From Nitrospiria bacterium (GTDB lineage Bacteria; Nitrospirota; Nitrospiria; JACQCE01), in assembly GCA_041484905.1 (NCBI GenBank), contig JBGPIL010000001.1, positions 1-33,544 of the forward strand: a stretch of DNA of 33,544 nucleotides, written 5' to 3'. The notes under the pieces were generated by a model. It saw only the letters and a program-made list of their open reading frames with translations. It was not told the DNA's origin and ran no database searches. Every line of letters starts with the position of its first letter. Position 1 is the stretch's first letter. A program made the position numbers and the translations under genes. This document shows, one piece after another, positions 2,236 through 30,447 of the stretch.

Positions 2236-2241
2236 TGGGGG

Positions 2242-2269
2242 ACAGTAGACAGTAGACAGGGAAGCAGTG
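2242..2269. repeat. Tandem heptanucleotide array (about 4 units)
   Basis: ACAGTAG ACAGTAG ACAGGGA AGCAGTG, starting 6 nt after the TGA of 1420..2235. Confidence 0.6.
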
Positions 2270-2295
2270 CTAAGGAAAAGAAGGGTACGACGGAA

Positions 2296-2322
2296 GGCTC
2301 GCTGAGGCGGGCCTTATTTTTT
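2296..2322 (+). terminator. Rho-independent terminator between convergent genes
   Basis: GGCTCGC-TGAG-GCGGGCC forms a 7-bp stem (one G.U pair, 4-nt loop), followed by TTATTTTTT. It lies between the + gene ending at 2235 and the - gene ending at 2314. Flanking AA/TT could extend the stem. Confidence 0.6.
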
Positions 2323-3305: not shown

Positions 3306-3351
3306 TCTCCCGACCAGGATGATGCCACGTTAGCACCTCTCTGGATGAAAA

Positions 3352-5377: not shown

Positions 5378-5429
5378 ATTCACCTCAAGCCAACATGTCA
5401 AAATAATTCTGTCCAGATATTTCCTGTGG

Positions 5430-7486: not shown

Positions 7487-7512
7487 CAGGCCATGGGGAT
7501 CATCGCAAGGGG

Positions 7513-7530
7513 ACCGGCCGGCTGGCCGGT
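7513..7530 (-). promoter_or_regulatory. Intercistronic GC hairpin directly after the stop of 7532..9379
   Basis: ACCGGCC-GGCT-GGCCGGT is a perfect 7-bp palindromic stem. There is no U-tract on the minus strand, so it is more likely an mRNA structure or processing element than a terminator. Confidence 0.3.
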
Positions 7531-7531
7531 G

Positions 7532-9379: not shown

Positions 9380-9430
9380 AATGAGGGCCGCGATGTATCG
9401 GGCCTCAACGTCACAGAGGGGCCGATCCCG

Positions 9431-12030: not shown

Positions 12031-12118
12031 TTCACGGTTCATGGTTCACAGTTCATGGCAAAGAGTACAAAGAGTCCTGGCCAGGTTGGCTATGAACCAT
12101 GAACGATGAACCCTGAAC
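12030..12118 (+). repeat. Heptamer-built inverted-repeat element, copy A
   Basis: Left arm GTTCACG GTTCATG GTTCACA GTTCATG (12030-12057). The 33-nt spacer is GCAAAGAGTACAAAGAGTCCTGGCCAGGTTGGC. Right arm TATGAAC CATGAAC GATGAAC CCTGAAC (12091-12118). The arms are about 23/28 complementary. The first G is the last base of the TAG stop of 11185..12030. Confidence 0.8.
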
Positions 12119-12138: not shown

Positions 12139-12402
12139 ATGGCGTTTGATTTTGAAAGGTTGGAGGTCTATCAGGAGGCGGTTCAGTTTGCTGATGAAAT
12201 CTACCGGCTGACCAGGAAGCTTCCTCAGGAGGAGCTATTTGGCTTAACGAGCCAGCTTCGCAGAGCAAGTGTCTCTGTCGCATTGAATATGGCAGAGGGA
12301 AGCGGGCGGCTGAAGAAGGAGTTTCGGCAGTTTCTGCGCATGGCGAGGGGATCGATCTATGAATTGATTGCGATTCTGCGGATCTCGCGGGATCAGCAAT
12401 AA
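12139..12402 (+). CDS. Four-helix-bundle protein (23S rRNA intervening-sequence protein / DGR Avd family), interrupted by an in-frame TAA
   Basis: MAFDFERLEVYQEAVQFADEIYRLTRKLPQEELFGLTSQLRRASVSVALNMAEGSGR...FLRMARGSIYEL matches the family pattern (F..L.VYQ.A, QLRRA..S...N.AEG, A.GS..E). The frame stays open after the TAA at 12400-12402 and encodes LAREDYDRCYARGEQLAKRISALIKAISS up to the TAG at 12490-12492. That gives a family-typical length of about 117 aa. Confidence 0.75.
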   Translation: MAFDFERLEVYQEAVQFADEIYRLTRKLPQEELFGLTSQLRRASVSVALNMAEGSGRLKKEFRQFLRMARGSIYELIAILRISRDQQ

Positions 12403-12484
12403 CTCGCGCGAGAGGACTATGACCGATGCTACGCCCGAGGAGAACAGTTGGCCAAACGAATCAGCGCCTTGATCAAAGCGATTA

Positions 12485-12559
12485 GTTCATAGTTGATAGC
12501 TCATGGTTCATGGTCTGCATACGCGCTTGGCCATGAACCGTGAACGGTGCACCGTGAAC
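12485..12559 (+). repeat. Heptamer-built inverted-repeat element, copy B
   Basis: Left arm GTTCATA GTTGATA GCTCATG GTTCATG (12485-12512). Spacer GTCTGCATACGCGCTTGGC. Right arm CATGAAC CGTGAAC GGTGCAC CGTGAAC (12532-12559). Confidence 0.75.
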
Positions 12560-12577
12560 CAGATTGGCTGGTTTTGC

Positions 12578-12605
12578 CGTGAACCATGAACTGTGAACCA
12601 TGAAC
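12578..12605 (+). repeat. Half-element (right-arm type only)
   Basis: CGTGAAC CATGAAC TGTGAAC CATGAAC, preceded by GGTTTTGC. There is no matching left arm. Confidence 0.65.
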
Positions 12606-12671
12606 CATACCGGCGTTGAACCAATTGAATAATAAGAGATAATTAAATGGAAGACGCCGGCAAGAACCGCC

Positions 12672-12699
12672 TTGACAAAATTGTTCGTCCTGCTACTAT
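12672..12699 (+). promoter_or_regulatory. Sigma70-type promoter for the leader of the giant gene
   Basis: TTGACA (12672-12677), a 16-nt spacer, then TACTAT (12694-12699), inside an AT-rich island. It is the best -35/-10 pair I found in the window, and the nearest downstream gene is on the + strand. Confidence 0.55.
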
Positions 12700-12730
12700 T
12701 AACAGCAAATCGCGGGGGTTTGTGGTTTGC

Positions 12731-12758
12731 CATGAACGATGAACCATGAACTGTGAAC
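12731..12758 (+). repeat. Half-element (right-arm type only) within the leader
   Basis: CATGAAC GATGAAC CATGAAC TGTGAAC, preceded by GGTTTGT GGTTTGC. It is a near-direct repeat of 12570-12605. Confidence 0.65.
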
Positions 12759-12766
12759 CAGCCGCG

Positions 12767-12866
12767 CCACCGACAAGAGCAATCCCGGATCGAAAGGCCG
12801 GGTCGCAGAGCGAGTGGCCTAACTCCCAGGCTGTAGAGGGATAGGGTAGCACCGCCGCCGAAGTGG
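12767..12866 (+). promoter_or_regulatory. Candidate GEMM-I (c-di-GMP / cGAMP class I) riboswitch aptamer
   Basis: Hand fold:
- P1: CCACCG (12767-72) pairs with CG[AA]GUGG (12859-66).
- J1/2: ACAAGAGCAAU.
- P2: 12784-12802, with a GAAA tetraloop at 12792-95.
- J2/3: UCGCAGA.
- P3: 12810-12855, about 13 bp, containing GGCCUAAC.
- 3' end: GCCGAA (12857-62).
The order and spacing of these blocks match the GEMM-I consensus as I remember it (GGCAAAcc, cGAAAg, GACGCAAAGC, GGCCUAA, GCCGAA). Confidence 0.5.
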
Positions 12867-12900
12867 ATGATATGAAGCAGAGGGACGAAGGCCAACCTGT

Positions 12901-12935
12901 ACGAACCTCCCCCGAGGAGTCGTGCGGGTTTTTTT
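12901..12935 (+). terminator. Possible intrinsic terminator / riboswitch expression platform
   Basis: ACGA-AC-CUCC cccga GGAG-UCGU is an 8-bp stem with a 2-nt bulge. Alternatively CCCG...CGGG pairs. Either is followed by GCGGG and T7 (12929-12935). The stem is weak, and the tract lies upstream of the probable start of the giant gene. Confidence 0.35.
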
Positions 12936-13066
12936 GTGCCCTGCGTGAGCACGCCCAGCGAATCTGTCGTCACATGAGCGCTCAATCGACTTCATCGAAT
13001 CATCGTCGCCTTCTTTTCTCCTCTACTGGTCAGCATCTACCCTTGGCTTATCACCCTGCACGCCTC

Positions 13067-16000
13067 ATGAAAAAACGGGACGCGTCCCTCCTTGTTCGAA
13101 GCCATGTTGTTGTGTTGGGTCTGGCCTTCCTCAGCTTCTTCATCGCCTTGCCCGATAAGGCGCAGGCGGCGACAAAAGACTGGAGCTGCACCGCCGCTAC
13201 GACAGCTTGGGCGACAGGATCGAACTGGGTGGGAGGTGTGGCGCCGACCAATGACCTGACGACAGACATTGCTCGGTTTAATTGTACGAGTTATACAAGT
13301 CAGCCTAATGCCGGCACGACCAGCATCGCTGGAATTGTTATTGGCGATGGCGCCACGGCCACTGCCGCGTTGACGATCAGCGGGACGGCTCTGAGCATCG
13401 GAGCTTCAGGTGTCGTCAAAAATGCCGCTTCAGGCACCGCCACGATCAGTACGGCCACCACACTAGGCGCCGCGTTGCCCTTTACCAACAACTCCGCCAC
13501 TTTACTAACTGTCGGTGCTGGGGCGATCACCAACGGCGCCAATCTTTTAACGGTGAACGGCTCCGGCAACGTCACGATTACGGGCGTAATCGGCAACGGC
13601 GCCGGAGGGGTGACCATGAGCGGCACGGGCACACTGACCCTCCAGGGCGCCAACACCTACTCAGGGGTGACGACGCTGAACGCGGGGACCTTGAAGGCCA
13701 CGACGAGCGCCAGCGCCCTGGGCGCGGGAACGTTGACGCTGGCCGGCGGAACGTTGCAACTGGCCAATGCCGCAACGCTGTCGTTCGGCCGCAACACCAC
13801 CGTGACGGCCAACAGCGCGATTATCTCGGATAAGCTGGCCGCCGGCGCGGGGGTGACCTTCACGCTGGGCACCCTGAGCATCGGGGCGAACACGTTAACG
13901 ATCAGTGCGGGGACCAATGCCACCAGCGGGACGGCGGGGATCACCTTCGGGGCCGTCACGCTGACGGGCGCGGCGACGATCAATAGTGCGACCGCTGCAA
14001 GCGGTTCGTCGGCCGTCAGCCTCGTGACGCTATCGGGCGGGGTGACCAACGGAGGCTTTCTCCTCACGCTTGGCGGTGCCGGTAATACCACGTCCAGCCT
14101 GGTGGCGATTTCCGGCGCGGGGGGCGTGACCAAGAACGACGCAGGCACCTTGACATACTCAATTGCCGAGACCTACACGGGCGCAACTACGATCAATGGT
14201 GGGACCGTGCTCGCAAATGCGACGAACGCGATCGGCAGCAGCAGCGCGGTGACGGTCGCCTCGGGAGCGACGTTGGATCTGCGGTTTGCCGACACGATCG
14301 GATCGTTGGCCGGTGCCGGAACCGTGACGAAGGGGGCGGTGGGGGCCATCACGTTGACGGTCGGCGGGGACAATACGTCAACGACCTTCTCAGGAGTGAT
14401 TCAAAACGGCAGCGGCACTCTCGCCGTGACCAAGACGGGCACGGGCAACCAGACCTTCTCGGGGGCGAATACCTATTCGGGCACCACGACCGTCAGTGCG
14501 GGCACCCTGACTGCCGCAAATACCCAGGCATTGGGGACCGGGACGCTGACACTGTCCGGCGGGACGTTGGACCTGGCGACCGACACGAGCATCAACGCCT
14601 ACAACACCACGGTCTCCCTCACCAGCACGATCATCTCGGATCGGGCCACGGCGGGCGCGGCCGTGACCCACACGCTGGGGACCCTGACCATAAGCGCCAA
14701 CCAGACACTCAATCTCACACTGGGTGGCAATGTGACCAGCGGCACGGCGGGGCTGACGTTTGGGACCACCACGCTGTCGAATGTTGGAGTGGTCTTTAAC
14801 ACGGCGGCGAGCACCAACCTGACGCTGGGGGCCTTGACCGGCAACTTCAGCTTCTCGAAGCAGAACAGCGGCCAATTGACGCTGAACACGGCCAGCGCTC
14901 GCACGAGCGGCGCCGTGACACTCTCCGGCGGCACGACGGTGCTCGGTGATCCCAGCGCCTTGGGCACCACCGGTGTGACCCTGACGCTCTCCGGCGGGAC
15001 GCTGGATCTGGCGACCGACAGCAGTGTCAACGCCTACAACACCACGCTCTCCGCCGGCACCACCAACGGAATCGTCTCGGATCGGGCCACGGCGGGCGCG
15101 GCCATCACCCATACCCTGGGAACCCTGAGCACCAACAACGCCCAGCTCAATGTGACCGTGGGCGGCAATGTGACGAGCGGCACGGCGGGGCTGACGTTTG
15201 GCACGACCACACTTGTAGCCGCGACCCCGATTTTCGACACGGCGGCCAACACCAATCTGACCCTGGGGGCGGTGGGCGGTAATGTTGCCTTCACCAAACA
15301 GAACAGCGGGCAACTGACCTTGAACACGGCAAGCACGCGCACTTTGGCTGCCGGTACGACGACCCTGACGGCGGGTACGTTGAAGCTGGGGACGGGCAAC
15401 GCGCTGAACACCGTCGCCTCGTCGCTGAACCTCAACGGCGGGACGCTGGTGTTGGCCGTGGATGCAAATACGACGTTCAATGGGACCAACGTGGTGGCGG
15501 GTGGGGGAACGGTGCAGGTGAATCGCGCAACGGCGGGGGCTGGCGTCACCGACACGCTGGGGACACTGAGCATCGGCAACGTTCAGCTCAATGTGACCGT
15601 GGGTGGCAACGTCACCAGCGGGACGGCGGGGCTGACGTTTGGGGCGACCACACTCTCGGCCGCGACCCCGATTTTCGACACCGCCTCGAGCACGAACCTG
15701 ACGCTGGGGGCCTTGAGCGGCAATTTCGCCTTCACCAAGCAGAACAGTGGTCAATTGACCCTGAACACGGCCAGTGCCCGGACGCTCGGCGCCGTGACGC
15801 TGGCCGGCGGCACGACGGTGCTCGGTGCGAGCACCGCCTTGGGCAGCGCCGCCGTCCCCCTGACGCTCTCAGGCGGGACGCTGGATCTGGCCATTAATGG
15901 CAGCGTCAGCTCCCACAACACCACGGTGACAGCCGACACCACGATTATTTCGGATCGGGCCACGGCGGGCGCGGGAGTGACCCATGCCTTGGGGGGCCTG

Positions 16001-19000
16001 ACCATCGGGGCGCAGACGTTAACGATCAGCGCCGGGGCGAATGTGACGAGCGGCACGGCGGGGGTCAGCTTTGGTGCGAGCCTTGGGACGACCCTGACGG
16101 GGGCGGCGACCTTCATTAGCGCGAGCAGCTCTCCGGCCGTCAGCCTGCTGACCGTCAGAGGGGGCAACGCAGGCGCAAACACGATGACATTTGATGGAGC
16201 TGGGGATTCAACGGTGTGGATAACGGGGTTTTCAGGGACTGGCGGTCTCGTCAAGAACGGATCGGGCACGTTGACCCTCAGCATCAACAATAGCTACAGC
16301 GGCACCACCACGATCAATGCGGGGACTGTGACCGAGAATATCGCCGGCGGGGCGCTGGCCGGCGCGGTGACCATCGCCGGCGGCACCCTGGACATGGCGG
16401 CGATCTCCGATACCGTGGGCGCCGTGACGCTGACCAGCGGCAGCATCACCGGAACGACCGGCGTCCTCACCGGCAGCTCCTACACGGTGGAGAGCGGCAC
16501 GATCAGCGCCATTCTGGGAGGAGGTGGCATCACGCTGACCAAGAATACAGCGGGGACGGTGACCCTCTCAGGGGCCAACACTTATACCGGCACGACGACG
16601 GTGAATGCGGGCACCCTGGTGGCCACGACGAGCGCCAGCGCCCTGGGGACGGGATCATTGACGCTGGCCGGCGGGACGCTGCAACTGGTCGATGACGCGG
16701 GGCTGGCGTTCAATCGCAACACGACCGTAACGACCACCAGCACGATCATCTCGGATCGGGCCACGCCGGGCGCGGGAGTGACCCACACGTTGGGGACACT
16801 GAGCATTGGAAACTTTCAACTCAATGTGACCGCGGGCGGCAATGTGACGAGCGGCACGGCGGGGCTGACGTTTGGTAATACCACCCTCTCGGCCGCGACC
16901 CCAATTTTCGACACGGCCTCGAGCACGAACCTGACGCTGGGGGCGTTAAGCGGCAACTTCGCCTTTACCAAACAGAACAGCGGCCAATTGACGCTGAACA
17001 CGGCCAGTGGTCGATCAAGCGGCACGGTGACGCTGGCCGGCGGTACCACCGTGCTCGGCAATGCGAGCGCTCTGGGCACCACCGGCGTGCCCCTGACGCT
17101 TTCCGGCGGGACGTTGGATTGGGCGATCGACACGAGCGGCAACGCCTACAACACGACGGTGACGGCTGATAGCGCGATCGTGTCGGATCGGGCCACGACG
17201 GGCGCGGGAGTGACCCATACATTAGGAACGCTGAGCATCGGAGCGCAGTTAACGATCAGCGCCGGGGCGACGAATGTGACCAGCGGCACGGCGGGGATCA
17301 CCTTCGGCGCGACGACCCTGACGGGGCCGGCGACGATCAACAGCGCCAGCAGCTCGCCAGCGAGCCTGCTGACGTTGGGGGCGGTGACCAATGGGGCGAA
17401 TCTCTTCACCTTTACGGGTGCGGGCGACAGCACGGTGGCCGGCGTCCTTGGCAATGGAAGCGGCGGTGTGACCAAGAACGGTACGGGCACGCTGACCCTC
17501 TCTGCGGCCAATACCTACACGGGCGTCACCACGATCAATAACGGTGTCGTGGCGGCGGGCAACGCGGCCGCCCTGGGGGCCACGGGAAGCGGAACGGTTG
17601 TGAACGGCGGGACGCTGGATCTGAACGGCCAGGCCGTTGGTGCGGAGCCGGTCACGCTCAACGGGACGGGCTTTGCCAGCGGCGGCGCCGTGATCAATGG
17701 CAGCGGGACGGCCGCGAGCCTGAGCGGCGCCGTGACGTTGGGCAGCGCCAGCAGTCTCGGCGGCACGGGCGACATGACGCTCAGCGGCGGGATCACCGGC
17801 GGCGCCTTCACCCTCACCAAGACCGGCAGCGGCACGACGACGCTGTCGGGCACTGTCGGCGTCGGCGCCCTGGTGCTCAATGGCGGGACGCTGGCCGGCG
17901 GGTCGAGCGCGTTGACCGTGGCCGGCAACGTCAGCGGCTCGGGCGGGATGAGCTTCACCACGGGTACCTTAACGATCGGCGGGGACAATACGGCATCGGG
18001 CCCCTTTGCCGCCGGGACGGGGACGGTCATCTATAGCAACGCCGGCGCCCACACCGTCCGGGGGATGACCTATCATCATCTGACCGTCACCGGCGGGGGG
18101 ACTTTTTCGCTCAATGTGATCACGACCGTCGGAGGGGATTTCACCATCGGCGCCTCCACCATCTTCCAGACGGCCAGTGTCCCGATGAGCGTCGGCGGTA
18201 ACTGGGCGAACAACGGCACCTTTACCGCCGGCACGGGGATGGTGACGCTCAACGGAACGGCGTTGCAAACCCTCTCCGGCGCGCTGACGGGGACATCGGC
18301 CTTCTATGATCTGACGATCACCAACACCTCCGGAGCCGATCCCAGCGTTTGCGTCGGCCCCGGACCCGATCCCACATTCACGCCGGGCGTCACCTTCTCT
18401 GTGGCGGCCAAGACGACCAATACCTTTGCCATTTCCGGCGGGAACGTCCGGGTCCAATATCTGGCCGGCGCCACCTACGCCTTCACAAACGTGAACTGGT
18501 CGGTGCCGTCGACATCGAACAAGATCACGTTCAGAAGCTCCACTCTGGGCACGCCATGGTTGTTGAATGTGCCGGGCCTGCAATTGGCCGCCTTCTACGT
18601 TGACGTGAAGGATTCGAACAATGTCATTCCGCCAAGCGCCAACCCGATCGGCGTCCTCAACGGCACCGATTGCGGGAATAACACGAACTGGACTTTTGGC
18701 ACGTCGACCAACTGGACGGCGACCAATCCCTCCGTCCTCGGCTTTGACCTCACCAGCGATACGAATCCGGCCGTCCCCTCCTCCATGGAGATCACCGGCA
18801 GCGTCCTCCAGCTCAAGGATCAATCCCCTTCATCCCCGGCCTTTTCCACCTCCTATGTCGAGGCGGTCACCGTGCCCTTCGGCGCGGGGCTGATGATCGT
18901 CCGCTGGGACAAGGTGGTGATCGAACTGCTTGGCGCCGACTTCGGCGTGGTCAAGGTCGGTTATGAATTTTCCACCAACGGCGGCGGTTCCTGGACCTGT

Positions 19001-22000
19001 GTCGATTGCGATCCGACGAACGCCGCCGCGCCGGAGCGCTTCCCGACGAACGCCACCATCAATCTCGGCGAAATCCTTCCGCTGGGCGGGACCCCCGGCA
19101 GCAATCTGATCAAATTCCATATCTATATGAAGTCGGACACCGGCTCGGCTCGGAGCCATACCGTCGGCAGTTTGTCCCTGTCGTTCAATCAGACGCTTGC
19201 GGTGACCAGCACGAACCCCTCCAGCCAGTTGCAAGGCGTCACCCAGGTGGTGCAGATCATCGGCCAAAACTTCCTGTCCGGCGCGATACCGACGATCGGC
19301 AATACCGGCTCCGGCGTCCTCGTGACTGGCGTGAGCTATTCGAGCCAGAACCGGCTGGACGCCACGGTGGCGGTCTCGTCGGTGGCTTCGGTGGGGGCGC
19401 GGGACGTGGTGGTGACCAATCCCGGCGGCTCGGCTGTCTGCTCCAACTGCTTCAGCGTCACGTTCAACCCCAATGCCCCGCCGGTGGTGACGGCGATCAC
19501 TCCAGACCACCGGACCCAGGGGGAGACCGCCCAGACCGTGACGATCGACGGAGGCAATTTTATCGATGGATCGTCTCTCTCGTTCAGCACCACGGCGATC
19601 ACCGTCGATTCGGTGACGATTAATCCGGCCTGCATCAGCGGGTCGCCCTGCACATCGTTCACCGCCGTGATTTCCATCGCCCAGAACGCCCTGCCCGGCA
19701 GTTACTATGTCACCGTCACGGCGCCCGGCGGCGCCTCCGGCACCAGCGACAGTCCACTCTTTACCATCGACGCCGGCCCGCAGGTGACCAGCGTCGTGCC
19801 CGCTTCCGGCACGCCCGGCACGACGATCCCGGCCGTCATCAACGGCGCCAATTTTGAAAGCGGGGCGACGGCCAGCTTCGGCGCCGGCGTCACGAACAAC
19901 TGTGCGTATACCTCCGCCGTCCTGCTGACCTGCACGACCGTGCAGATCGGCGCGGCGGCCCTGCCCGGCACGAGGGACGTCACCGTGACCAATCCGACCG
20001 GCGGGACGATCCGGGGCTCGGGGACCAAGACGGCGGGTTTTCTTGTCTCGACGACGCCGAACCCCGTCAGCGTCACGCCGCCGTTGCTGGGGCCGGGCGC
20101 GACCGGGCAGTCGCTGACGGTCAACAGCCCCACCGCGACCTTTGCCTCCGGCGCGACGGTGACCTTCGGCAAGCCCACCGTTGATCTGTTCAATTTGTGC
20201 AGTAATTTCACCTTCGCCAGCCCGGCATCAATCGGCTGCGTCCTGCCTCAAGAGTTGGCGGCGACCGGCAGCACGAAGGCGCTCTACCATTTTGATGCGG
20301 GCAGCGGGAGTACGGCGGCTGATTCCTCCGGCTCCGGCAATACCGGCACGATCAGCACGACCACCCGCCTCTACCTGCACGAGGCCTCCGACACCGCCGC
20401 CGGCCTGCCGGACGGAGAGCAATCGACCGACACGGCCAATGTCAACTGGACGGCGGCGAATACGATCCGCCAGATGACCGAGACGATCGGCTCGGCGCAG
20501 CAATCGCCCTCGGCCAATACGCTGGCCCAGACCGCCCAGCAGTTGCACTTTATCCGGATGTGGACAAGCCCGCCGTTGGCCGCCCAGACGATTCCGAATA
20601 CCACCACCTGGACATTGAACTTTGCCCGGTTGGAGAACAATGGTTCTGCAAATTTCCTGGCGCGAGTCCACCTCTATGTCTGGCGGCCCGGCACGGCAAC
20701 CAAGGTGGGGACGATCATCGCGCCGACCACGTGGGGGACGACAGGGTGCAACCCGGCCACAACCCCTGCCACATGCAGCGAGAATAGCTCGTCAAGCGCC
20801 GAGCAGTCGTATCACTGGACGGCGATCGCCGGCGGCAACGTGACCGTTCAAGAGGGCGATCGGCTGGTGCTGGAGTGGTGGGGCGATCTGACGCAAGGGT
20901 CGGCCACAACCTACAGCCTGAAGGGCTATTATGACGGCGCCGCCGTGACGACGGCCACGAACACAACGGTGACCAGCCAGGCCAGCTTCTTGGAAGCCTC
21001 CCAGCCCTTTGCGTTGAGCAGCGCCTGGACCGCGATGGGCAAATACTCCCCCGCGCTGACGTTTGACGGGAATAGTGATTACGTGAATGTGCCGGATTCC
21101 GCCACGCTGAGCCTGACGGGCAACTTCAGCCTGGAGGCCTGGATCAGGACCAATCTCAATACGGTCCAGCAGGGGATCATCGAAAAATTTGACGCGGCCG
21201 GAACCAACGGCTATGCCCTGCGGCTGACCGCAGCCGGGAAGCTCCAGGCTGTCACGTATGGCGCGGCGAGCAGCGCGACCGTGACCGGCGCCACCACGGT
21301 GACGAGCGGCGCCTGGCATCATGTGGCGGCGGTCTATAACGGAGCGACGATCAAGGTCTATCTGGATGGCGCGGAGGACGGGAGTGCGGCGGCGGCGGTC
21401 AATCCGACGAATGGGACGAATAGCCTGAGAATCGGCGCGGGCGGAGGAACGGCCGGGGGTTTCTACTTCAACGGCATCATTGATGAACTGGCCATCTTCA
21501 ACGCCGCCCTGCCCGCCACGGGCGCCGGAAGCGTGCAAGAGCATTATCTCGACGGCGTCAGGGCAATCCAACTCCTTGGTTCGGCCCCCTATACAACCGC
21601 GCCGCAGACGGCGACCAGCGCGGCGTTCGGGAGCGGCTATTCGATTCAAAGCTGGAACACGCTGCAGGTGACGAGCAGCGGGACCAATGACGGCCCGACG
21701 ACGATCAAGATCGCCTACAGCAAGGATGGGGGAGCCAGCTTTGTCAGCAGCAGCGGCGGGGCGGCCTTCTCCGATGGGGGGACGACAGTGACGGGCGGGG
21801 TTCAGGTGATTTCGTTGTGCAACACGGCGACCTGCGTGAACGCCTCTGATGCCACCCAAAACCGGATCAAGGTTCAGGTGACAGAGGCGTCGGGGACCGG
21901 CGCCAACCGTCCCTACGATGTAAACCAGATGAAGCTCTCCTGGACGCCGACGACCGGTATCACGATCGTCTCGCCCTTTACGACCAATGGCGCCGGCACG

Positions 22001-25000
22001 GGCGTCTCCTTCGCGGTGAATGTCGCCAACAACCTGGCGCAGGCCGTGCCGACCACGTTTGATGTGACCGTCACCAATCCCGACACCGCCGCCGGCACCT
22101 GCGTCGACTGCTTTATGGTCGCGGAGTCGCTGAGTTTCTCGCCGTCCAGCCTGGGCCAGGGGGCGCAGAACAGGAGCGTGACGATCACCGGCAGCGGCTT
22201 CCAGCCCGGCCTCGCGGTGGACTTCGGCGACGCCAACATCACCAACAACTGCGTCTACAGCTCCTCGACCCAGATCACCTGCTCGGCCGTCAACGTCGGC
22301 GGGGCCGCCACGACAGGCGTGAAGACGGTCAACGTCACCAGCGGCGGCAACGTGATCGGCACGGGCCTCTTTACGGTCAACCCTCATCCGGCGACGCTGA
22401 GTCTCACGCCAGCCAGCGCGCTGGCCAATACCAGCAATCTTCTCGTCACGTTGAACGGCGCCAATTTTCAGAGCGGGGCGACGGTGACCTTCAGCGATTC
22501 GCTGATCACCCAGCATGGATCGTCCAATTACCAGACGATTCCGACCACCTTTGTCAGCAGCAGCCAACTGACGGCGAGCATCGATATTGGAGCGGCCACA
22601 ACCGGCTATCGCGCCGTGGTGGTGACGAATACCGCCGGCGACGGCGGCGTCGGCCAGGGGGCCTACTTCTATGTTGGCGCCCTCTCGACGACCGGCGGCA
22701 TGGTGGCCTATGGGGTGAGCGGGTCGGCCGATCCGAAATTCCGGCTGCTGCAATCGGACGGCAACTGGACCTCGGAGATGGGCATCGGGAGTTATTCCGG
22801 TGAGCCGCGCTGGACGGTGCTGCGCTCCAACCCGCTCTCTTTGGAAAAAGCGTTGGCCATCGTCGATACCAATCGTGCCCTCACGCTGCTGATGTGGGGC
22901 GGCAGCGGCTGGAGCGCGCCGGTGACGGCGACGGCCTCCAGCGGGCCGACCATCTACGCCGCTCGCAGCGTTGACCTGGCCTACGAGTCCGTGTCGGGTC
23001 GTGCGTTGGCCGTCTACGGCGTGACCGGCTCGGCGCTGCCTCGTTACCGGATCTGGGATGGAACGGCGTGGAGCGCGGAGGCGAGCGTGTCGTCGACGCT
23101 CAGCACCGGCGGCGCCCCTACCTGGGTGCGTCTCGTCTCCAGGCCGGGCACGAACGAGATCGTGCTCGTCTATCAGGATACCGGCGGCGGGATCGACGCG
23201 CTGGTCTGGAACGGGAGCGCGTTCGGGAACGAACAGGTGTTGACGACGACCGCGCCCAACAGCCCGAACGTGCAACTGGCCGACGCCGCCGCCGAGCAGT
23301 TGGCCTGCGGCGCCGCCTGCCGGGTTCTTGTCGTCTGGACCGGTCAGAGCCAGGCGACGCCGGTCTCCAGAGTCTGGAATGGAAGCTGGGGGGTGCAACA
23401 GGGCGTGCCGATCAGTTTTAGTTCGAGCCTCGGCTCGTTACGGAGTGTCAGGCTGGCGGCCGATCCGGCCAGCCAGGACATCGCGCTCGGCGTAACGGCC
23501 ACCGGCGGGCAACTCTCCCTCTCTTTCTGGCACAGCGCGGCCTGGGCCACCAGCGGGACGGCTGCGCCCCAGACGGTGGCGACGATCCTGCCCTCCTCGC
23601 TGGTCAGTCAAGGCCGTCCGTTCGATCTGACCTGGCAGGGCGCCTACTCCGGCATCCCCAGCCGCCTCTACGTTGTCTATGGCGATGTGGCGCCGATGGC
23701 CAGAAACTGGACAGGGGTTGCCGGCTGGTCGGCGGAAACCAACATGGTGTCCACGTCGGCGCTGCTTGGCCAGTATCACATGGACGAAACGAGCAATCCG
23801 CTCCTTGACAGCTCCGGGAATGGAAAAGATCTGACATTGACCACGACATCGATGACCGGGCAGCCGGGTATTGCCGGCCAGTCGGTGGTTTTCGGCAGCG
23901 GCGTCTCCGCGTCGGCATCGAATACCTCGGCCCTGGGCGTGAGCGGCGCCGTTCTCACGATGTCCGCGTGGGTTTATCCGAACAGCTTCCCCTCCCAGGC
24001 GATCATCCTGAACAAGGAAAGCTCATACGGGATGGGGATCAATGGCGGTCAGCTCCAGGCGGAGATCATGACCAATCCCGGCAGCGGGTGCAGTTGGAGC
24101 TGGGTGGGATCGACGGCCCTGACGCTCAACGTGTGGCAGCATGTCGCGGTGACGTATGATGGAAGCAATATCAAATTCTACGTCAACGGGCTTCTGACAC
24201 AAACCATCTCCAAAACCGGAACCATCTGCACCTCGGCCAACGCGTTCATGATCGGCGCCCGGCCGGCCGGCAGCAATTTCATCGGCCGGATCGATGAGGT
24301 CCGAATCCTCAATGCCGCCATGACGCCGCCAGCCATGCTCCAATTGGCGGCGGATCAGCGCGGCTCGCTCAACCTGTGGGTGGGCCAACTGAACGAGGCG
24401 CCAGCCCTGCAAACCATCCTGGGCAGCGGCGCCGCCTGGTCGGCCCCCGTTTCCATTGCCGCGCCGGCTTCGGGCGCGCAGTTCGTCTCGCCGAACACCG
24501 TCTATCCCGAATCATCGATGCTGGCGATGGCCGCGGGCACGGGCGCGCCGATCCTGGCCATCTTCGGCGCCTCGCCCGGATCGGCCTATCAGGGCCAAAC
24601 GCTCGACGTCACCGTTTCGGGCGCCAATTTCGTTTGCCCGGCCGGGCCGCTGTCCTGCGATATGACGTCCAATCCGACGACCGCGACCCAGATCACGTCG
24701 TTCGGCGATCCCAACATCACCATCGCTTCAGGGACGGTCCATACCGACACCCAGACCATCGTCGTCACCATCACGATCGGCGCACCCGCCTCGGTCGGGT
24801 TCGACAACATCACCGCCGTGAACCCCGACGCCACGTCGGCGACGGGCGCGAACCTGTTTCAGGTGCTCTCTATCCTCTCCGTCGTCTCAACGACGTGCGG
24901 GACCGTGACCGATTGCGTCCTGGGCCAGGGGGCGCAGAATCAGACGGTGACGATCAGCGGCAACGGCTTCCATGACTTCAGCGTCACGGACACCGAAGCG

Positions 25001-28000
25001 CGCTTCTGCACCTCATCGGTGCCGTGCGGTTCCCCCAGTTCACCGGATATCACGCTCGGCGCTCGAACGGTGCTCAGCGGATCGATCACCTACAATAGCT
25101 CGCTCTCGGTTGCGCCAACGGCCGCCGTCGGCAACTGGAACGTGACAATCATCAACACGTCCGCATCGGTCGGCACCGTGACCGGCGCGGCCATCTTCAC
25201 CATCGTCGCCGGCCCCACGGTGATGACAGCCATTCCCAGTCAGTTTGTGACCGGCACCTCCGGCACCGTCGTCCTGTTGGGGAGCAACTTTCAGACAGGG
25301 GCGACCGCCGACTTCGGCGCCGGCGTCACGGTTACCACGCCCTGCACCGTGGGCAGCTCGACGCAGATGAGTTGCGGTATCACCGTGAGCGCTGTGGCGG
25401 CCGCCGGCGCCCGGACAGTCACGATCATCAATCCGTCGCCGCCGACCGGGAACGCGGGGCAGGGAAGCACTGCGGGCCTCTTCACGCTGATCGGCCCGCC
25501 GGTCCTGACCGATACCGCCTGCGGCAGCGTGACGCCCACCCCCTGCGAAGTGGGGCAAGGCGCGACAAAGACCATCACAATCGATGGCAGCCAGTTCACG
25601 GCGACGCCGACCGTGACCTTTACCAAGACGGCATCAACCGGCTCGGTGACCGTCAACTCGGTGACGTTCGTCAGCTCGACCCAATTGTCGGTGAGCGTGA
25701 CGGTCAGCGCCAATGCGACGGTAGGCCTCTGGGATGCGACTGTCACCAGTCCGACCGGCGGGTCGGTCACCAGCAATACGGACCCCAAGCGACTGAGCGT
25801 GGCGGCCGGCCCGCCCACGGTGACGAGCACCAGTTGCCCGTCGGGCACTCCCTGCGCGAAGTCGAGCTCCGCGACGGTGACGATCAACGGGACGAATTTC
25901 AGCAATGGCGGCGGTGCCCCGACGGTCTGCTTCAGCGGCGTCGGCATGCCTGCCTGCCCGATCACGGCCACCTACGTGAACAGCACCCAGTTGACCGTCA
26001 CCATCGATGACACCGGTGCGGCGGTCGGCGCTCACGACGTCACCGTGACGCTGGCCAACGGCGGAACGGCGACCGGCGCCGGTCTCTTTGTGCTCAGCGG
26101 CACACCGACGATTACGTCGGTCGTGGCCGCGACCAGCGCCACCAACACCGCGGCGCAGGGCCTGGTCAACGAGCTGATCACGATCAACGGCGCCAATTTT
26201 GTGAGCGCGCCGACGGTCAGTTTCAGCGGCGACGGCATCACGCCCGTCAGCCCGATCACGGCCACGTTTGTCAACGCCACCCAGGTGACCGTGACCATCA
26301 CGATTGCCGCCACCGCCACGATCGGCGCCCGGACCGTGACCGTGACCAACCCCGACGGTTCGACCGTGACGGGCCCCTCGACGCTGACCATCACCGACCC
26401 CGGGAGCTACGCCGCCTTTTGCCCTGGCGGCAACGTGACGGTGACCGGTTCGACGACTTTGACCTTTGCCGCGCCGGGCCCGGCTTACGTCTGTAATAAT
26501 GTCACGGTGAATGGTGGCGGGGTCTTAACGATCGAAAATGGCGTGACCCTTGCTGTCAATACGCTCCTGACGGTTGGCGGGGCAACCGCCGGCACCGTCA
26601 GCATCGCCTTCCAGAGCGCCTCAACGACCGACTACGGCCGGATCAATGCGAATAATATTACGGTCAACTCCAACGGTGTGATCTCGGCCGATGGGCTGGG
26701 CTGCCCGGGCAGCCAGTCGGCGCAGGATGCGGGCGGCTGTGCGGATCTGCGGACGACCGGGCAGGATACCAACAGCCTCTACCGGGAAGGCGGGGACTCC
26801 GGAGGCACCGGAGGCGGCGGGGCGCATGGCGGCGCAGGCGGCGATGGGGATACAGCCAACTCGGGGGGTAAGCAGACGTATGGGAATGCCCTGGCGCCGG
26901 TCTTGCTCGGCAGCGGCGGGGGGTTATATAGCGGGACGGGCGGCAACGGGGGCGGGGCGATCCGCTTGGATCTGGGTGGGGGTCTGACGATCAATGGCCA
27001 GATCAGCGCGAAGGGCGCCAGGAGCTCGTTTCAGGGGGGCGGCAGCGGCGGGAGTATCTATATTACGATGGTGGGGACGTTGACGGGGACGGGGACGATC
27101 GCGGCCGACGGGGCGGGGCAAGGGGGGAGCGGCCGGGGCGGCGGGGGCGGCGGGGGGCGGGTGGCGCTCTATTACAGCAATTTTGGGACGATGCCGACGG
27201 TGACGGCGGCCGGCGGGGACAATCTGGGCGGGAATGCGCCGGGGGCGGCGGGGACGGTGACGCTGGTGATCGTTGATAATCAGCCCCCTGCGCCGATCTC
27301 GCCGTTGAAGCTGGTGCCCTTATCGGTGACCTCCGTATCGGCCAAGCTGCAATGGACGGCGACGGGGAATAACGGTGCGCTGGGCACGGCGACCGTCTAT
27401 GATCTGCGGTATGTCGTCGGCGCGGCGGCTGTCATGAGCGACACCTCGTATCAGACGGCGTTTCAAGTGGGTGGAGTGCCGGCGCCGGCCGTGTCGGGCA
27501 CGGTCCAGAGCTTCACGGTGACCGGGTTGACGCCGGCCACGAACTACTGTTTTGCGATCAAGGCCAGCGATGCGGCCGGCAATATCGGCGCGCTGGATGT
27601 GACGGGGACTTATTCAATAGATGGGACGGACGGCACGACGTCCACCGCCTGCTTCACGACTCAGGCGCCCGATACGACGCCGCCGGCGGCGGTGAGCGAC
27701 CTTGCGACGGCATTGGTGACAAGCGGGGGCTACACTTATACCGACCGGGTGAAGTTGACCTGGACGGCCGTGGGCGATGACAACAACAGCGGCACGGCCA
27801 CAAGTTATGAGCTGCGCTATTCGACTTCACCGATCAACGCCGGTAACTTTGCCTCAGCGGTCTTGGTCTCCGGCGTGCCCGCGCCGTCAATCGCCGGCAC
27901 CTACCCGGAACCTGCGCCCAGCGGCTTCATCATGACCGGCCTGCAATCGGGCCTGACCTATTACTTCGCGATCAAGGTGAAGGATGAGGTGCCCAATACC

Positions 28001-29595: not shown

Positions 29596-30447
29596 ATGAA
29601 GACAAGCAGAGTCATAAGGAGTCTTTTCTTCCGGCTTCCGGCTCTGGGTTTCTTTGCTCTTTTCCTGGCTACAGCCTACTGGCTCCTGCCTTCTGCCGTA
29701 CTCGCCTCCGACTGGCAGCTCGGCCTCACAATCAGCGTGCCGTTCGTGGACGGGGAAGGGGGGAAGGCAACCCAGGTGTTGACCAGCGGCGCCCGGCTCA
29801 CGGCGCTGGATGGGTATGACAACACGTGGGATACGGTGACGCTCAACAGCAGCACGGCGATGGTGGCCTACTTTTATCATCCGGAATTTGCGCCGGATCT
29901 CCAGTTGTTGGCCCGAGATTTTCGATTCGACAGTTATCCCCAACAATGGGATTTCTATGTCAGCTCCGATCAGAACGGCCAGCCGGTGACGATGGCGTTG
30001 AGTTCGCCGTACCCCGCGCTGGGAAGTTGTTTGGGGATGACGCTCAGCCTGATGGATGTCACGGCGGGGACGCCAGTCGATCTAACCCAGTCGGCCTACG
30101 TCTATACCAACAATGCGGCGGTGACCCGCCATTTTCAATTGACGGCCACACAGACCGTGGAAACGCCACCGTCGGCACCGGCAAATCTTTTCAGCCCCAG
30201 AACCGGGACAACTTCCGTTCTATTGGCTTGGACGGGGAGCCTGCCCGCCAACGGCGGCTACTATGTCTATCGCAAGGATCCCGACACGGCGGCCTATCAC
30301 CGGGTGACCACAACCCTGCTCTCGGTGGCGAAATATCTGGATAGCGGCCTCCTGCCCGGCTCCTACTCCTACCTGGTCACCACCGCGACGACCACCGGCT
30401 GCGAGAGCGGTCCCTCCAACGGGGTGACCGTCACGGTCGGCCCGTAA
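29596..30447 (+). CDS. Exported hypothetical protein with C-terminal FN3-like domain
   Basis: SD-like AAAGGGGTG lies upstream. The N-terminus is a hydrophobic signal/anchor (LFFRLPALGFFALFLATAYWLLPSAVLASD). C-terminal module: PPSAPANLFSPRTGTTSVLLAWTGS...GGYYVYRKD...LDSGLLPGSYSYLVTT. Confidence 0.75.
   Translation: MKTSRVIRSLFFRLPALGFFALFLATAYWLLPSAVLASDWQLGLTISVPFVDGEGGKATQVLTSGARLTALDGYDNTWDTVTLNSSTAMVAYFYHPEFAPDLQLLARDFRFDSYPQQWDFYVSSDQNGQPVTMALSSPYPALGSCLGMTLSLMDVTAGTPVDLTQSAYVYTNNAAVTRHFQLTATQTVETPPSAPANLFSPRTGTTSVLLAWTGSLPANGGYYVYRKDPDTAAYHRVTTTLLSVAKYLDSGLLPGSYSYLVTTATTTGCESGPSNGVTVTVGP

What the first reader, a model, noticed from the sequence alone, without database searches (positions are those of the whole stretch)
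12767..12935. Candidate GEMM-I cyclic-dinucleotide riboswitch, with the GEMM-Ib (cGAMP-type) A at the G20-equivalent position, in the leader of the giant surface-protein operon
**Seen in the sequence.** About 60 nt downstream of the predicted transcription start, nt 12767-12866 fold by hand into a three-helix junction:
- P1: CCACCG pairs with CG[AA]GUGG.
- J1/2: ACAAGAGCAAU.
- P2: CCCGG-A-UC GAAA GG-CCGGG, with a GNRA loop.
- J2/3: UCGCAGA.
- P3: about 13 bp, carrying GGCCUAAC where GEMM-I has its tetraloop receptor.
- 3' end: GCCGAA.

**Comparison, from memory.** V. cholerae Vc2 reads ACAGGGCAAACC - cGAAAg hairpin - GGGACGCAAAGCC - GGCCUAAAC, with a conserved GCCGA-type 3' end. That is the same blocks, order and near-identical spacing.

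The base aligned with Vc2 G20 is A (12778; AGAGCAA vs AGGGCAA). In Geobacter GEMM-Ib riboswitches this change confers 3',3'-cGAMP recognition, and those riboswitches control extracellular-electron-transfer genes.

**Downstream context.** A weak hairpin plus U7 comes next, then an adhesin-like giant protein, an FN3 protein and a multihaem cytochrome. These are typical GEMM-regulated gene classes.

**Inference.** This surface/redox operon is under second-messenger control.
Basis: partly seen in the sequence, partly recalled or inferred. Interest (0 to 1): 0.75.

Follow-up and report, generated by a model that had tools for sequence, protein, structure and literature searches.

The report
Cyclic-dinucleotide riboswitch before giant adhesin gene
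This is a real riboswitch of the well-known GEMM-I (cyclic-di-GMP-I) family, carrying the G20-to-A change; it sits ahead of a 5,485-residue surface-protein gene and a strong transcription terminator, but the sequence alone cannot say whether it senses cGAMP or c-di-GMP.

Summary
Rfam's c-di-GMP-I model (RF01051) matches window 12768-12862 (+) over its full length at 47.7 bits (gathering score 35). The base aligned to Vc2 G20 is A12778, and A47 (12807) and C92 (12858) are kept.

Promoter, aptamer and terminator recur in two metagenome contigs (L129, L159), in L159 ahead of another giant PATR gene. In 34 related aptamers, 95% of cells pair and 20 of 27 pairs change on both sides.

The "weak hairpin" is a strong intrinsic terminator (12895-12929, U7 12929-12935), conserved in both relatives.

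The cGAMP reading is not established:
- A20 is necessary but not sufficient. Vc2 G20A and Cbe 1-2 bind c-di-GMP as well or better.
- The validated Geobacter pilM riboswitch differs outside the core.
- The closest named relative of the neighbouring 283-aa protein is a Nitrospirota MAG, not Geobacter.

The element belongs to a subgroup (G19/A20/G48:C90) found mainly in Nitrospirota and Gemmatimonadota, upstream of secreted Ig-like/FN3 proteins.

How the aptamer controls the separate terminator is unresolved; I lean towards an ON switch. Verdict: a new member of a known kind.

The parts
12672..12699 (+). Sigma-70-type promoter-like site: TTGACA, 16 nt, TACTAT, with TG before the -10 hexamer.
   Evidence: 10 of 12 matches. 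The region holds 3 sites against 0.6 expected from shuffles. The same TTGACA ... TGCTAnnnT arrangement is present in L129 (1323-) and L159.
12712..12765 (+). 5' leader hairpin (GCGG 12712-15 pairing with CCGC 12762-65). Its loop holds a (NNTGAAC)x4 heptamer array at 12730-12760.
   Evidence: MFE fold. L129 and L159 have a short GCGCGG...CCGCGC hairpin at the same place without the array. The function was not tested.
12767..12866 (+). GEMM-I (c-di-GMP-I family) aptamer including P1. Key positions: G19 12777, A20 12778, P2 12784-12802, A47 12807, G48 12808, P3 12810-12856, C90 12856, C92 12858.
   Evidence: RF01051 at 47.7 bits against a gathering score of 35. The core is identical in L129 (44.4 bits) and L159 (42.3 bits). 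Subgroup covariation is shown.
12778..12778 (+). A at the position of Vc2 G20. This base reads the alpha base of the ligand.
   Evidence: cmscan alignment column 11, at the highest posterior-probability symbol ('*'). It aligns with the A of the Geobacter pilM riboswitch and the G of C. difficile Cd1.
12889..12894 (+). Linker hexamer AGGCCA, complementary to the P3 5' strand UGGCCU (12815-20). It is a candidate strand that competes with the aptamer fold (the alternative-P3 helix), and it lies directly 5' of the terminator stem.
   Evidence: It pairs in the unconstrained MFE of all three leaders. It is kept as GGGCCA in L129 and GGGUCA in L159, and all variants can still pair with UGGCCU. Its role is inferred.
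12895..12935 (+). Intrinsic terminator: stem 12895-12904 with 12920-12929, inner stem 12906-09 with 12914-17, and U7 at 12929-35.
   Evidence: Folds at about -23 kcal/mol. Pair probability is about 1.0. It is conserved in L129 and L159, with three one-sided changes that keep the pairs and no compensatory doubles.
13067..29524 (+). Regulated gene: a 5,485-aa secreted surface protein with a signal peptide, PATR repeats, 2 Laminin_G_3 domains and fn3.
   Evidence: The mechanical ORF start (GTG 12863) runs through the leader and is not the real start.
29596..30447 (+). 283-aa secreted partner protein, a conserved companion of the giant gene.
   Evidence: Homologues follow giant genes in L153, L154, L159, L160 and L161. 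Homologues are annotated as, or hit, fn3.
30620..33394 (+). 924-aa membrane-anchored protein with 5 haem motifs (CXXCH) and TPR repeats. It may be a separate transcript.
   Evidence: The same gene order is seen in L153 and L161. An inverted heptamer-array element at 30469-30564 lies between it and the 283-aa gene.

Best explanation
**What it is.** A genuine GEMM-I-family (Rfam RF01051) cyclic-dinucleotide riboswitch in the 5' leader of a giant PATR/laminin-G/fn3 surface-protein gene. The host is an uncultured bacterium. The closest named relative of one neighbouring gene's product (the 283-aa protein) is Nitrospirota, but the window's own taxonomy was not determined.

**How it most likely works.**
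1. Transcription starts at the promoter at 12672-12699.
2. The aptamer (12767-12866) has pocket bases A20/A47/C92. It binds a 3',3' cyclic dinucleotide whose beta base is G.
3. The ligand is c-di-GMP and/or 3',3'-cGAMP. Which one cannot be read from the sequence.
4. Ligand binding alters the share of transcripts that stop at the conserved intrinsic terminator (12895-12935), 29 nt after P1. That sets expression of the adhesin-like operon.
5. The most likely link between aptamer and terminator is competition for the P3 5' strand UGGCCU. Its rivals are its native partner and the conserved linker hexamer RGGYCA, which abuts the terminator.
6. I lean towards ligand = read-through (ON), by analogy with sister aptamers and adhesin biology.

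**Shown versus inferred.**
- Shown: family membership, the A20 base, the conserved promoter, aptamer and terminator, and the association with PATR giant genes.
- Inferred: ligand identity, coupling to the terminator, and polarity.
For: **Family membership.** RF01051 at 47.7 bits against a gathering score of 35, full-length.

**Two independent homologous leaders:**
- L129: 44.4 bits.
- L159: 42.3 bits.
- Both keep the promoter, an identical aptamer core and the terminator.

**Gene association.** L159's leader precedes another PATR giant gene.

**Covariation.** In the subgroup alignment of 34 sequences, including the window:
- 95.2% of cells pair and 20 of 27 pairs change on both sides.
- 0 of 500 shuffles reach the observed values, and slid controls give 28-46%.

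**Pocket bases.** A20, A47 and C92 are read from the cmscan alignment.

**Terminator.** About -23 kcal/mol with pair probability about 1.

**Alternative-P3 helix.** It is predicted in all three leaders, and it is favoured over the native aptamer by about 4-5 kcal/mol once the linker is made.

**Sister aptamers.** 24 of 39 subgroup members have a terminator whose 5' strand is the aptamer's 3' tail, the classical ON design.

**Known precedent.** Geobacter GEMM-Ib switches are ON switches (PMC9262584; PMC6456294).
Against: - In equilibrium folding the terminator forms whether or not the aptamer is enforced.
- No classical antiterminator was found.
- The candidate linker-terminator hairpin is weak and not well conserved: -9.6, -6.9 and -4.0 kcal/mol.
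- The three close leaders share an invariant core, so they give no compensatory evidence for the aptamer themselves.
- The terminator shows only one-sided changes.
- L127, the third aptamer with the same GCCGAA tail, has a design that looks more like an OFF switch.
- No experiment supports transcription start, ligand or polarity.
Confidence: 0.75

Rival explanations
1. It is a cGAMP-selective GEMM-Ib riboswitch. A12778 pairs with the adenine of 3',3'-cGAMP and C12858 with its guanine. The operon would then be under a Hypr-GGDEF-type cGAMP pathway, as in Geobacter.
For: - The pocket triple A20/A47/C92 is the same as in validated cGAMP riboswitches.
- A 5-haem cytochrome gene lies in the same gene cluster.
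- Subgroup members mostly have ON-type terminators, like the Geobacter ones.
- Authors in the field expect cGAMP riboswitches outside Geobacter (PMC8835794).
Against: - A20 alone gives bispecific or c-di-GMP-preferring binding in Vc2 G20A and Cbe 1-2 (PMC6140456).
- A20 aptamers are widespread.
- Hypr GGDEFs are rare, 0.17% of GGDEF domains (PMC9140294).
- The sequence outside the core is unlike Geobacter pilM.
- Genes downstream of the subgroup are Ig-like/fn3 surface proteins, a typical c-di-GMP theme.
- No cyclase gene was found among the window ORFs scanned.
Confidence: 0.3
2. It senses c-di-GMP, or both c-di-GMP and cGAMP. A20 would read the G-alpha base through a protonated adenine, as shown for Vc2 G20A, Gs1761 and Cbe 1-2. 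The adhesin would then be switched with the ordinary biofilm signal.
For: - The protonated-adenine binding mode and nanomolar c-di-GMP affinities of A20 aptamers are reported in PMC6140456.
- The regulated genes are adhesin-like surface proteins, both here and across the subgroup.
- The taxonomic spread of A20 aptamers far exceeds the known spread of cGAMP signalling.
Against: - Six genomes in the sample carry a G20 and an A20 aptamer within 8 kb of each other. This hints that the two types are not redundant, although none of these six belongs to the G48 subgroup.
- In Geobacter, natural A20 aptamers are up to about 1200-fold selective for cGAMP (PMC6456294).
Confidence: 0.55
3. The aptamer is real but does not control this terminator. 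The hairpin-U7 would be a constitutive attenuator or RNA-end element. The riboswitch would act by another route, such as Rho, RNA stability or translation 200 nt downstream.
For: - The terminator forms in every modelled state.
- There is no antiterminator.
- No obvious Shine-Dalgarno sequence precedes ATG 13067.
Against: - Aptamer, spacing and terminator are conserved together in three leaders.
- The conserved hexamer that competes with P3 sits exactly at the foot of the terminator.
- Most sister aptamers use termination.
Confidence: 0.2
4. It is a chance resemblance or a decayed, non-functional aptamer.
For: - The score (47.7 bits) is lower than for sister aptamers (55-63 bits).
- cmscan marks non-standard base pairs.
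Against: - The score is above the curated threshold, with E = 1.7e-6 for the whole window.
- All pocket bases, the GNRA loop and the receptor are kept.
- The core is 100% conserved in two other contigs whose flanks and P3 tip have diverged.
Confidence: 0.04

Closest known systems
GEMM-I / c-di-GMP-I riboswitch (Rfam RF01051; type example V. cholerae Vc2)
   Same: - Full-length match to the model above threshold.
- Same P1-P2-P3 junction, GAAA tetraloop with a CUAA-type receptor, and the G21-C46 and C22-G45 pairs.
- A47 and C92 are kept, as is the GCCGAA tail.
- It sits in a 5' leader.
   Different: - Position 20 is A, not G.
- Position 48 is G, facing C90, where the consensus has A and U.
- P2 carries a 2-nt insertion.
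- The terminator is separate from the aptamer.
GEMM-Ib / c-AMP-GMP riboswitches of Geobacter (Gs1761 upstream of pgcA; G. metallireducens pilM)
   Same: - A at position 20 with A47 and C92 retained.
- Transcriptional control through an intrinsic terminator.
- Surface and extracellular gene targets.
   Different: - pilM has a C21-G46 / U22-G45 arrangement, a GCGA loop, no CUAA receptor and A48/U90.
- Its terminator overlaps the aptamer's 3' half and sequesters C75. Here the terminator starts 29 nt after P1.
- The host here is not a Geobacter.
- Ligand selectivity is untested.
Bispecific A20 aptamers (Vc2 G20A mutant; Clostridium beijerinckii Cbe 1-2)
   Same: The G19-A20 context (AGAGC) is identical to the sequence expected for Vc2 G20A (the Vc2 sequence is from memory and was not checked here). 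It is a natural A20 aptamer outside Geobacter.
   Different: It comes from a different lineage and belongs to the G48:C90 subgroup. Affinities are unknown here.
Sister subgroup found here: G19/A20/G48:C90 aptamers of Nitrospirota and Gemmatimonadota
   Same: - Same J1/2 ...AGAGCAA, the same CGCAGAGC, the C90-GCC motif, the GNRA loop and the receptor.
- Secreted surface-protein genes lie downstream.
   Different: - In the sisters P1 starts right after GCC (tail GCCAGNG), and the terminator's 5' strand is that tail (24 of 39).
- The window, L129, L159 and L127 instead keep the canonical GCCGAA tail; a terminator separate from the aptamer was scored for the window, L129 and L127 and seen in L159's alignment.

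Membership tests
GEMM-I / c-di-GMP-I (RF01051) | Covariance-model score at or above the curated gathering score (35 bits) | tested here: met
   47.7 bits, model positions 1-87 of 87, E = 1.7e-6. Homologues L129 score 44.4 bits and L159 42.3 bits.
GEMM-I / c-di-GMP-I (RF01051) | Three-helix junction with a GNRA tetraloop on P2 and its receptor on P3, supported by covariation | tested here: met
   GAAA at 12792-95 and CCUAAC at 12818-23. In the 34-sequence subgroup alignment, 95.2% of cells pair, 20 of 27 pairs change on both sides, 0 of 500 shuffles reach the observed values, and slid controls give 28-46%.
GEMM-I / c-di-GMP-I (RF01051) | Ligand-contacting A47 (intercalating) and C92 (Watson-Crick to G-beta) | tested here: met
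   A12807 and C12858 lie in the aligned columns. Their roles are as described in PMC6140456.
GEMM-I / c-di-GMP-I (RF01051) | G at position 20 (reads G-alpha; the c-di-GMP-selective state) | tested here: not met
   A12778 aligns to model position 11.
GEMM-I / c-di-GMP-I (RF01051) | Binds c-di-GMP | not testable with these tools
   Needs in-line probing, ITC or a gel shift.
GEMM-Ib / c-AMP-GMP riboswitch | A at position 20 with A47 and C92 retained | tested here: met
   The definition is taken from PMC6140456.
GEMM-Ib / c-AMP-GMP riboswitch | Selective binding of 3',3'-cGAMP over c-di-GMP | not testable with these tools
   The literature shows A20 is not sufficient: Vc2 G20A and Cbe 1-2 are bispecific or prefer c-di-GMP.
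GEMM-Ib / c-AMP-GMP riboswitch | The host makes cGAMP (a Hypr GGDEF or DncV-type synthase in the genome) | not tested
   Only this 33.5-kb contig is available. No GGDEF or SMODS hit appears among the ORFs scanned.
GEMM-Ib / c-AMP-GMP riboswitch | Resemblance to validated Geobacter members beyond position 20 | tested here: not met
   The alignment with G. metallireducens pilM shows a different 21-46 pair, loop, P3 and 48/90 bases.
GEMM-Ib / c-AMP-GMP riboswitch | ON switch whose terminator overlaps the 3' half of the aptamer | tested here: not met
   The terminator occupies 12895-12935 and is separate from the aptamer, which ends at 12866. The pilM design is described in PMC9262584.
GEMM-Ib / c-AMP-GMP riboswitch | Association with extracellular-electron-transfer genes | tested here: inconclusive
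   The first gene is an adhesin-like PATR protein. A 5-haem cytochrome lies 17.8 kb downstream behind a repeat element. Genes downstream of the subgroup are Ig-like/fn3 proteins.

The most novel reading that the evidence does not exclude
The G19/A20/G48:C90 aptamers, including this one, might form a distinct specificity class. They occur mainly in Nitrospirota and Gemmatimonadota, upstream of secreted adhesin-like proteins. They could be cGAMP-selective, or selective for some other dinucleotide, outside the Desulfuromonadales. If so, they would mark an unrecognised cGAMP-type second-messenger pathway that controls cell-surface proteins in these phyla.
Probability: 0.22. Interest if true: 0.65.

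Novelty: new member of a known kind. Interest (0 to 1): 0.35.

Why it matters
- **Immediate value.** It annotates a real regulatory RNA that gene callers swallow into the coding sequence. It places a 5,485-residue adhesin-like protein of an uncultured bacterium under cyclic-dinucleotide control.
- **Wider question.** cGAMP riboswitches are so far validated mainly in Geobacter, while cGAMP synthases are more widely spread (PMC8835794). A natural A20 subgroup in Nitrospirota and Gemmatimonadota gives a concrete set of RNAs to test for cGAMP sensing outside Geobacter.
- **If they bind c-di-GMP.** They would be further natural examples where the 'specificity' base does not set specificity.
- **A design worth dissecting.** The expression platform, with a terminator separated from the aptamer and no evident antiterminator, could be dissected experimentally.

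Tried and rejected
1. **A second, degenerate riboswitch copy upstream.** Short repeats at 12258-71 and 12292-307 lie inside a 23S_rRNA_IVP ORF, and there is no Rfam signal even at E up to 10. These are chance matches.

2. **Orthologous leaders through the giant protein.**
   - Its N-terminus has only repeat-level hits of about 40% identity across phyla.
   - The best hit, P0001, sits in an unrelated context.
   - Giant genes are too long for the 10-kb flanks.
   - Leaders were finally reached through a DNA pattern (L129) and through contigs of 283-aa homologues (L159).

3. **Exact look-up of window proteins to name the organism.** Nothing was found. The window equals a whole unnamed NCBI contig. 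Homologues of the 924-aa protein are mostly unnamed or from Acidobacteriota at under 45% identity.

4. **Primary GEMM-Ib papers.** Kellenberger 2015, Nelson 2015, Ren 2015 and Hallberg 2016 are not held. I used secondary accounts instead.

5. **A classical antiterminator.**
   - Pairing of the aptamer's 3' half with the terminator's 5' strand was not found.
   - Pairing of the aptamer tail CCGCCGA with the terminator's 3' strand is weaker than the terminator itself, and is lost in L159.

6. **The linker-terminator hairpin as antiterminator.** It is too weak and variable: -9.6, -6.9 and -4.0 kcal/mol.

7. **The minus-strand ORF 12482-12985.** It has no Pfam hit and spans repeats, promoter and aptamer. 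I treat it as spurious.

Full report

Yes. A scan of the whole 33,544-base window, both strands, against all 4227 Rfam families gave one match above a gathering score:
- family RF01051 (c-di-GMP-I, that is GEMM-I), at 12768-12862 on the + strand;
- 47.7 bits against a threshold of 35;
- E = 1.7e-6;
- the whole model matched (positions 1-87).

| Element | Sequence | Coordinates |
|---|---|---|
| P1 | CCACCG, pairing with CG and GUGG | 12767-72 with 12859-60 and 12863-66 |
| P2 | CCCGG-A-UC GAAA GG-CCGGG | 12784-12802 |
| Two-pair clamp | G21-C22 with G45-C46 | 12779-80 with 12805-06 |
| P3 | carries GGCCUAAC | 12810-12856 |
| Tail | GCCGAA | 12857-62 |

In the cmscan alignment the unpaired G just before the clamp (model position 11, Vc2 G20) is aligned with A12778, at the highest posterior-probability symbol ('*'). 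The intercalating A47 is A12807, and the Watson-Crick C92 is C12858.

A promoter-like TTGACA-16-TACTAT with a TG extension lies at 12672-12699.

**2. One correction: the hairpin is not weak.**

Bases 12895-12904 pair with 12920-12929 (10 bp). An inner CCUC/GAGG stem lies at 12906-09 and 12914-17. The fold is about -23 kcal/mol and is followed by U7 at 12929-35. Its pairs have probability about 1.0 in the ensemble. The simple terminator scan missed it only because of the interior bulge.

**3. The surroundings.**

- The window is a whole, unnamed NCBI contig. A database protein 100% identical to the 283-aa ORF sits on a contig of exactly 33,544 bp.
- The gene after the leader really starts at ATG 13067. 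The mechanical ORF start, GTG 12863, runs through the leader.
- That gene encodes 5,485 residues: a signal peptide, PATR repeats, two Laminin_G_3 domains and fn3.
- A 283-aa secreted protein follows. Its homologues are annotated as, or hit, fn3.
- After a 172-nt gap containing an inverted repeat element comes a 924-aa protein. It has N-terminal membrane helices, five CXXCH motifs and TPR repeats.
- The order giant / 283 aa / cytochrome-TPR recurs in L153. In L161 a fn3-containing protein, the 283-aa homologue and the cytochrome follow in the same order.
- The closest named homologue of the 283-aa protein is from a Nitrospirota MAG at 62% identity.
- Upstream genes are paralogous FGE-sulfatase, FG-GAP/ASPIC and PD40 proteins.
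- No cyclic-dinucleotide enzyme was seen among the ORFs scanned.

**4. Related leaders.**

A metagenome scan for the window's J1/2 and J2/3 signature found 29 contigs. One of them, L129, is a close homologue of the whole leader. A second, L159, was reached through a homologue of the 283-aa protein.

All three share:
- the TTGACA...TGCTAnnnT promoter;
- a short 5' hairpin;
- an aptamer core identical from P1 to the CUAAC receptor;
- a divergent P3 tip;
- the tail CACCGCCGCCGAAGUGG;
- a linker ending in RGGYCA;
- the terminator with its U-run.

L129 and L159 pass the Rfam threshold on their own, at 44.4 and 42.3 bits.

In L159 the leader precedes another PATR giant gene with the same N-terminal motif. 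In both L129 and L159 it lies just downstream of a giant-gene / 283-aa module, so these operons occur in tandem.

The terminator's 8-9 bp core is kept in all three. Three positions change on one side only and keep the pair (U-G to C-G, A-U to G-U, U-G to U-A). There are no double compensatory changes.

**5. Covariation.**

The three close leaders are too alike to test the aptamer. I therefore aligned 34 aptamers sharing the window's signature, including the window, L129 and L127. I counted pairs for the GEMM-I fold:
- 95.2% of cells form standard pairs;
- 20 of 27 pairs change on both sides;
- 0 of 500 shuffles reach the observed values;
- sliding the partners by 1-3 columns drops pairing to 28-46%.

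The fold is well supported for this subgroup.

**6. What kind of GEMM-I is it?**

Hits came from Clostridia, Bacilli, Chloroflexi, Nitrospirota, Gemmatimonadota, Desulfobulbaceae, Steroidobacteraceae and others. A at position 20 is therefore neither rare nor a Geobacter trait.

*A subgroup emerges.* I examined 146 distinct A20 aptamers, of which 92 had a locatable P3.
- Position 48, the base after the intercalating A47, covaries with the base just before G91-C92. G48 goes with C90 in 39 of 39 cases, and A48 goes with U90 in 45 of 53.
- Every G48 aptamer also has G19.

The window, L129, L159 and L127 belong to this G19/A20/G48:C90 subgroup.

*Taxonomy of the subgroup.* Among named genomes it comprises 9 Nitrospirota, 8 Gemmatimonadota, 2 'Deltaproteobacteria' MAGs and 2 others.

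*Downstream genes of the subgroup.* They encode secreted Big_2/Big_1/fn3 proteins, polysaccharide lyases and phosphoesterases.

*Register of the 48:90 pair.* The covariation suggests a G48-C90 pair. This fits the description of the Gs1761 crystal structure, where the base after the intercalating A opens P3 (PMC6274999). It is therefore most simply a compensatory variant of a pair next to the pocket, not a change of a ligand contact.

**7. Ligand.**

The literature I could read states (PMC6140456):
- G20 reads G-alpha by its Watson-Crick edge, C92 pairs with G-beta, and in cGAMP riboswitches G20 is replaced by A.
- The Vc2 G20A mutant is bispecific, at 53 nM for c-di-GMP and 120 nM for cGAMP.
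- The natural A20 aptamer Cbe 1-2 prefers c-di-GMP, at 30 nM against 463 nM for cGAMP.
- c-di-GMP binds all A20 aptamers through a protonated adenine.
- P1 stability, among other factors, seems to set the selectivity.

In Geobacter the pgcA riboswitch is about 1200-fold selective for cGAMP (PMC6456294).

The only validated Geobacter sequence I could obtain is pilM. Apart from A20, A47 and C92, it differs from the window in the clamp pair, the loop, the receptor and positions 48/90.

Hypr GGDEF cyclases are rare, at 0.17% of GGDEF domains (PMC9140294).

Six genomes in my sample carry a G20 and an A20 aptamer within 8 kb. This hints that the two are not always redundant, but none of those six is in the G48 subgroup.

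I conclude that the pocket is of the 'AAC' type shared with cGAMP riboswitches, and that selectivity cannot be called. My estimates are:

| Reading | Probability |
|---|---|
| cGAMP-selective | about 0.3 |
| c-di-GMP or dual | about 0.55 |
| other or none | remainder |

**8. Mechanism.**

*Sister aptamers.* Among the subgroup, 24 of 39 have a terminator whose 5' strand is the aptamer's own 3' tail (CCGCCAGAG ... CUCUGGCGG-U run). Ligand-stabilised P1 would then block termination, which is a classical ON switch. The Geobacter pilM switch works the same way.

*The window's design.* One search scored a terminator separate from the aptamer, starting about 30-40 nt downstream, in the window, L129 and L127. 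These three keep the canonical GCCGAA tail. L159 has the same tail and a terminator at the same place in the alignment.

*What the folding shows.*
- In equilibrium folding the terminator forms whether or not the aptamer is enforced.
- I found no classical antiterminator.

*What is conserved.* A linker hexamer sits directly at the foot of the terminator: AGGCCA at 12889-94, GGGCCA in L129 and GGGUCA in L159. It can pair with the invariant P3 5' strand UGGCCU (12815-20).
- This alternative helix appears in the unconstrained minimum-energy fold of all three leaders.
- It beats the native aptamer by about 4-5 kcal/mol once the linker is transcribed.
- Ligand binding could overcome that margin.

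*The resulting model.*
- In the ligand-bound state the freed linker can form a small hairpin with the first bases of the terminator's 5' strand: AGG-CCAA-CCU here, and GGG-N4-CCC in the other two.
- That hairpin is weak and variable: -9.6, -6.9 and -4.0 kcal/mol.
- My best model is therefore a relay. Without ligand, the linker invades P3, the terminator's 5' strand stays free, and termination is efficient.
- With ligand, the aptamer is locked, the linker transiently holds the terminator's 5' strand, and more transcripts read through.
- This is inference from folding predictions on three sequences. The polarity could be the reverse.
- L127 has, in its terminator loop, an exact complement of its own P1 5' strand. 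That looks more like an OFF design.

**9. Comparison and novelty.**

- It is a member of RF01051. Every structural criterion I could test is met except G20.
- It shares the defining pocket change of GEMM-Ib.
- The defining property of GEMM-Ib, cGAMP selectivity, cannot be tested here. Two secondary resemblances are not met: similarity to Geobacter members and an overlapping terminator.
- I therefore file it as a new member of a known kind, an A20 GEMM-I aptamer in a subgroup typical of Nitrospirota and Gemmatimonadota.
- The most novel reading still open is that this subgroup is a cGAMP-selective, or otherwise altered, class outside Geobacter.

**10. Limits.**

- The primary GEMM-Ib papers were not available.
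- The genome scan was truncated.
- The source genome beyond this contig could not be reached.
- Taxonomy rests on one 62%-identical named homologue and on the taxonomic spread of the subgroup.
- No step of transcription, binding or switching has been shown experimentally.

Noticed in passing
window 12030-12062(-), 12086-12118(+), 12485-12513(-), 12527-12559(+), 12577-12608(+), 12730-12760(+), 30469-30494(-), 30517-30564(+), 33344-33369(-), 33392-33417(+): Arrays of about four tandem heptamers (NNTGAAC, for example CCATGAACCGTGAAC...). They occur mostly as inverted pairs right after stop codons, where they can form long hairpins. One array sits in the loop of the riboswitch leader's 5' hairpin, and it is absent from the homologous leaders L129 and L159. 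The arrays look like a genome-specific REP-like element. None was found in the 123 loci held at that point.
   Followed up: partly
window 12139-12402 (+): A small ORF of 87 aa between the FGE-sulfatase gene and the riboswitch promoter is a 23S_rRNA_IVP (four-helix-bundle) protein (PF05635, E = 4e-28). It is flanked on both sides by the inverted heptamer arrays, as if it were part of an inserted cassette.
   Followed up: partly
146 A20 aptamers in L005-L152 and the window (position 48 = 12808, position 90 = 12856): Position 48 covaries with the base just before G91-C92: G with C in 39 of 39 cases, A with U in 45 of 53. G48 is always accompanied by G19. This favours a 48:90 pair rather than the 49:90 pair drawn in the Rfam consensus, where cmscan flags A49-C as a mismatch. 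Why G19 is linked to it is unexplained.
   Followed up: partly
L129 1-1300; L159 1-6160: The giant-gene / 283-aa modules occur in tandem. In L129 and L159 the riboswitch leader lies directly after a giant-gene C-terminus and a 283-aa homologue. In L159 it starts a second PATR giant gene.
   Followed up: partly
window 12863-13066; L159 6159-6560: The reading frame of the giant gene stays open through the terminator and part of the aptamer. The mechanical ORF here starts at GTG 12863, and the gene called on L159 (6159-9881) swallows the whole riboswitch at 6250-6353. This looks like an annotation artefact that would hide such leaders.
   Followed up: no
L127 445-640: This low-GC aptamer of the same subgroup, with the same GCCGAA tail, has a separate terminator. 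The terminator loop contains CUUAUCGGUAA, the exact complement of the aptamer's P1 5' strand and J1/2 (UUACCGAUAAG). This is a different, possibly OFF-type, expression platform.
   Followed up: no
L039, L060, L066, L090, L108, L119: In six genomes (Anaerolineales, Aquibacillus, Chloroflexia, Acetomicrobium, Thermincola, Papillibacter) a G20-type GEMM-I aptamer lies within 8 kb of an A20-type one.
   Followed up: no
L001, L003, L004 (IMG/VR contigs): Three viral contigs carry A20-type GEMM-I-like aptamers that match the pattern. A fourth hit, L002, looks like a low-complexity chance match.
   Followed up: no
window 552-12030: The upstream half of the contig is rich in paralogues: three FGE-sulfatase-domain genes, four PD40 beta-propeller genes and two FG-GAP/ASPIC genes.
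   Followed up: no
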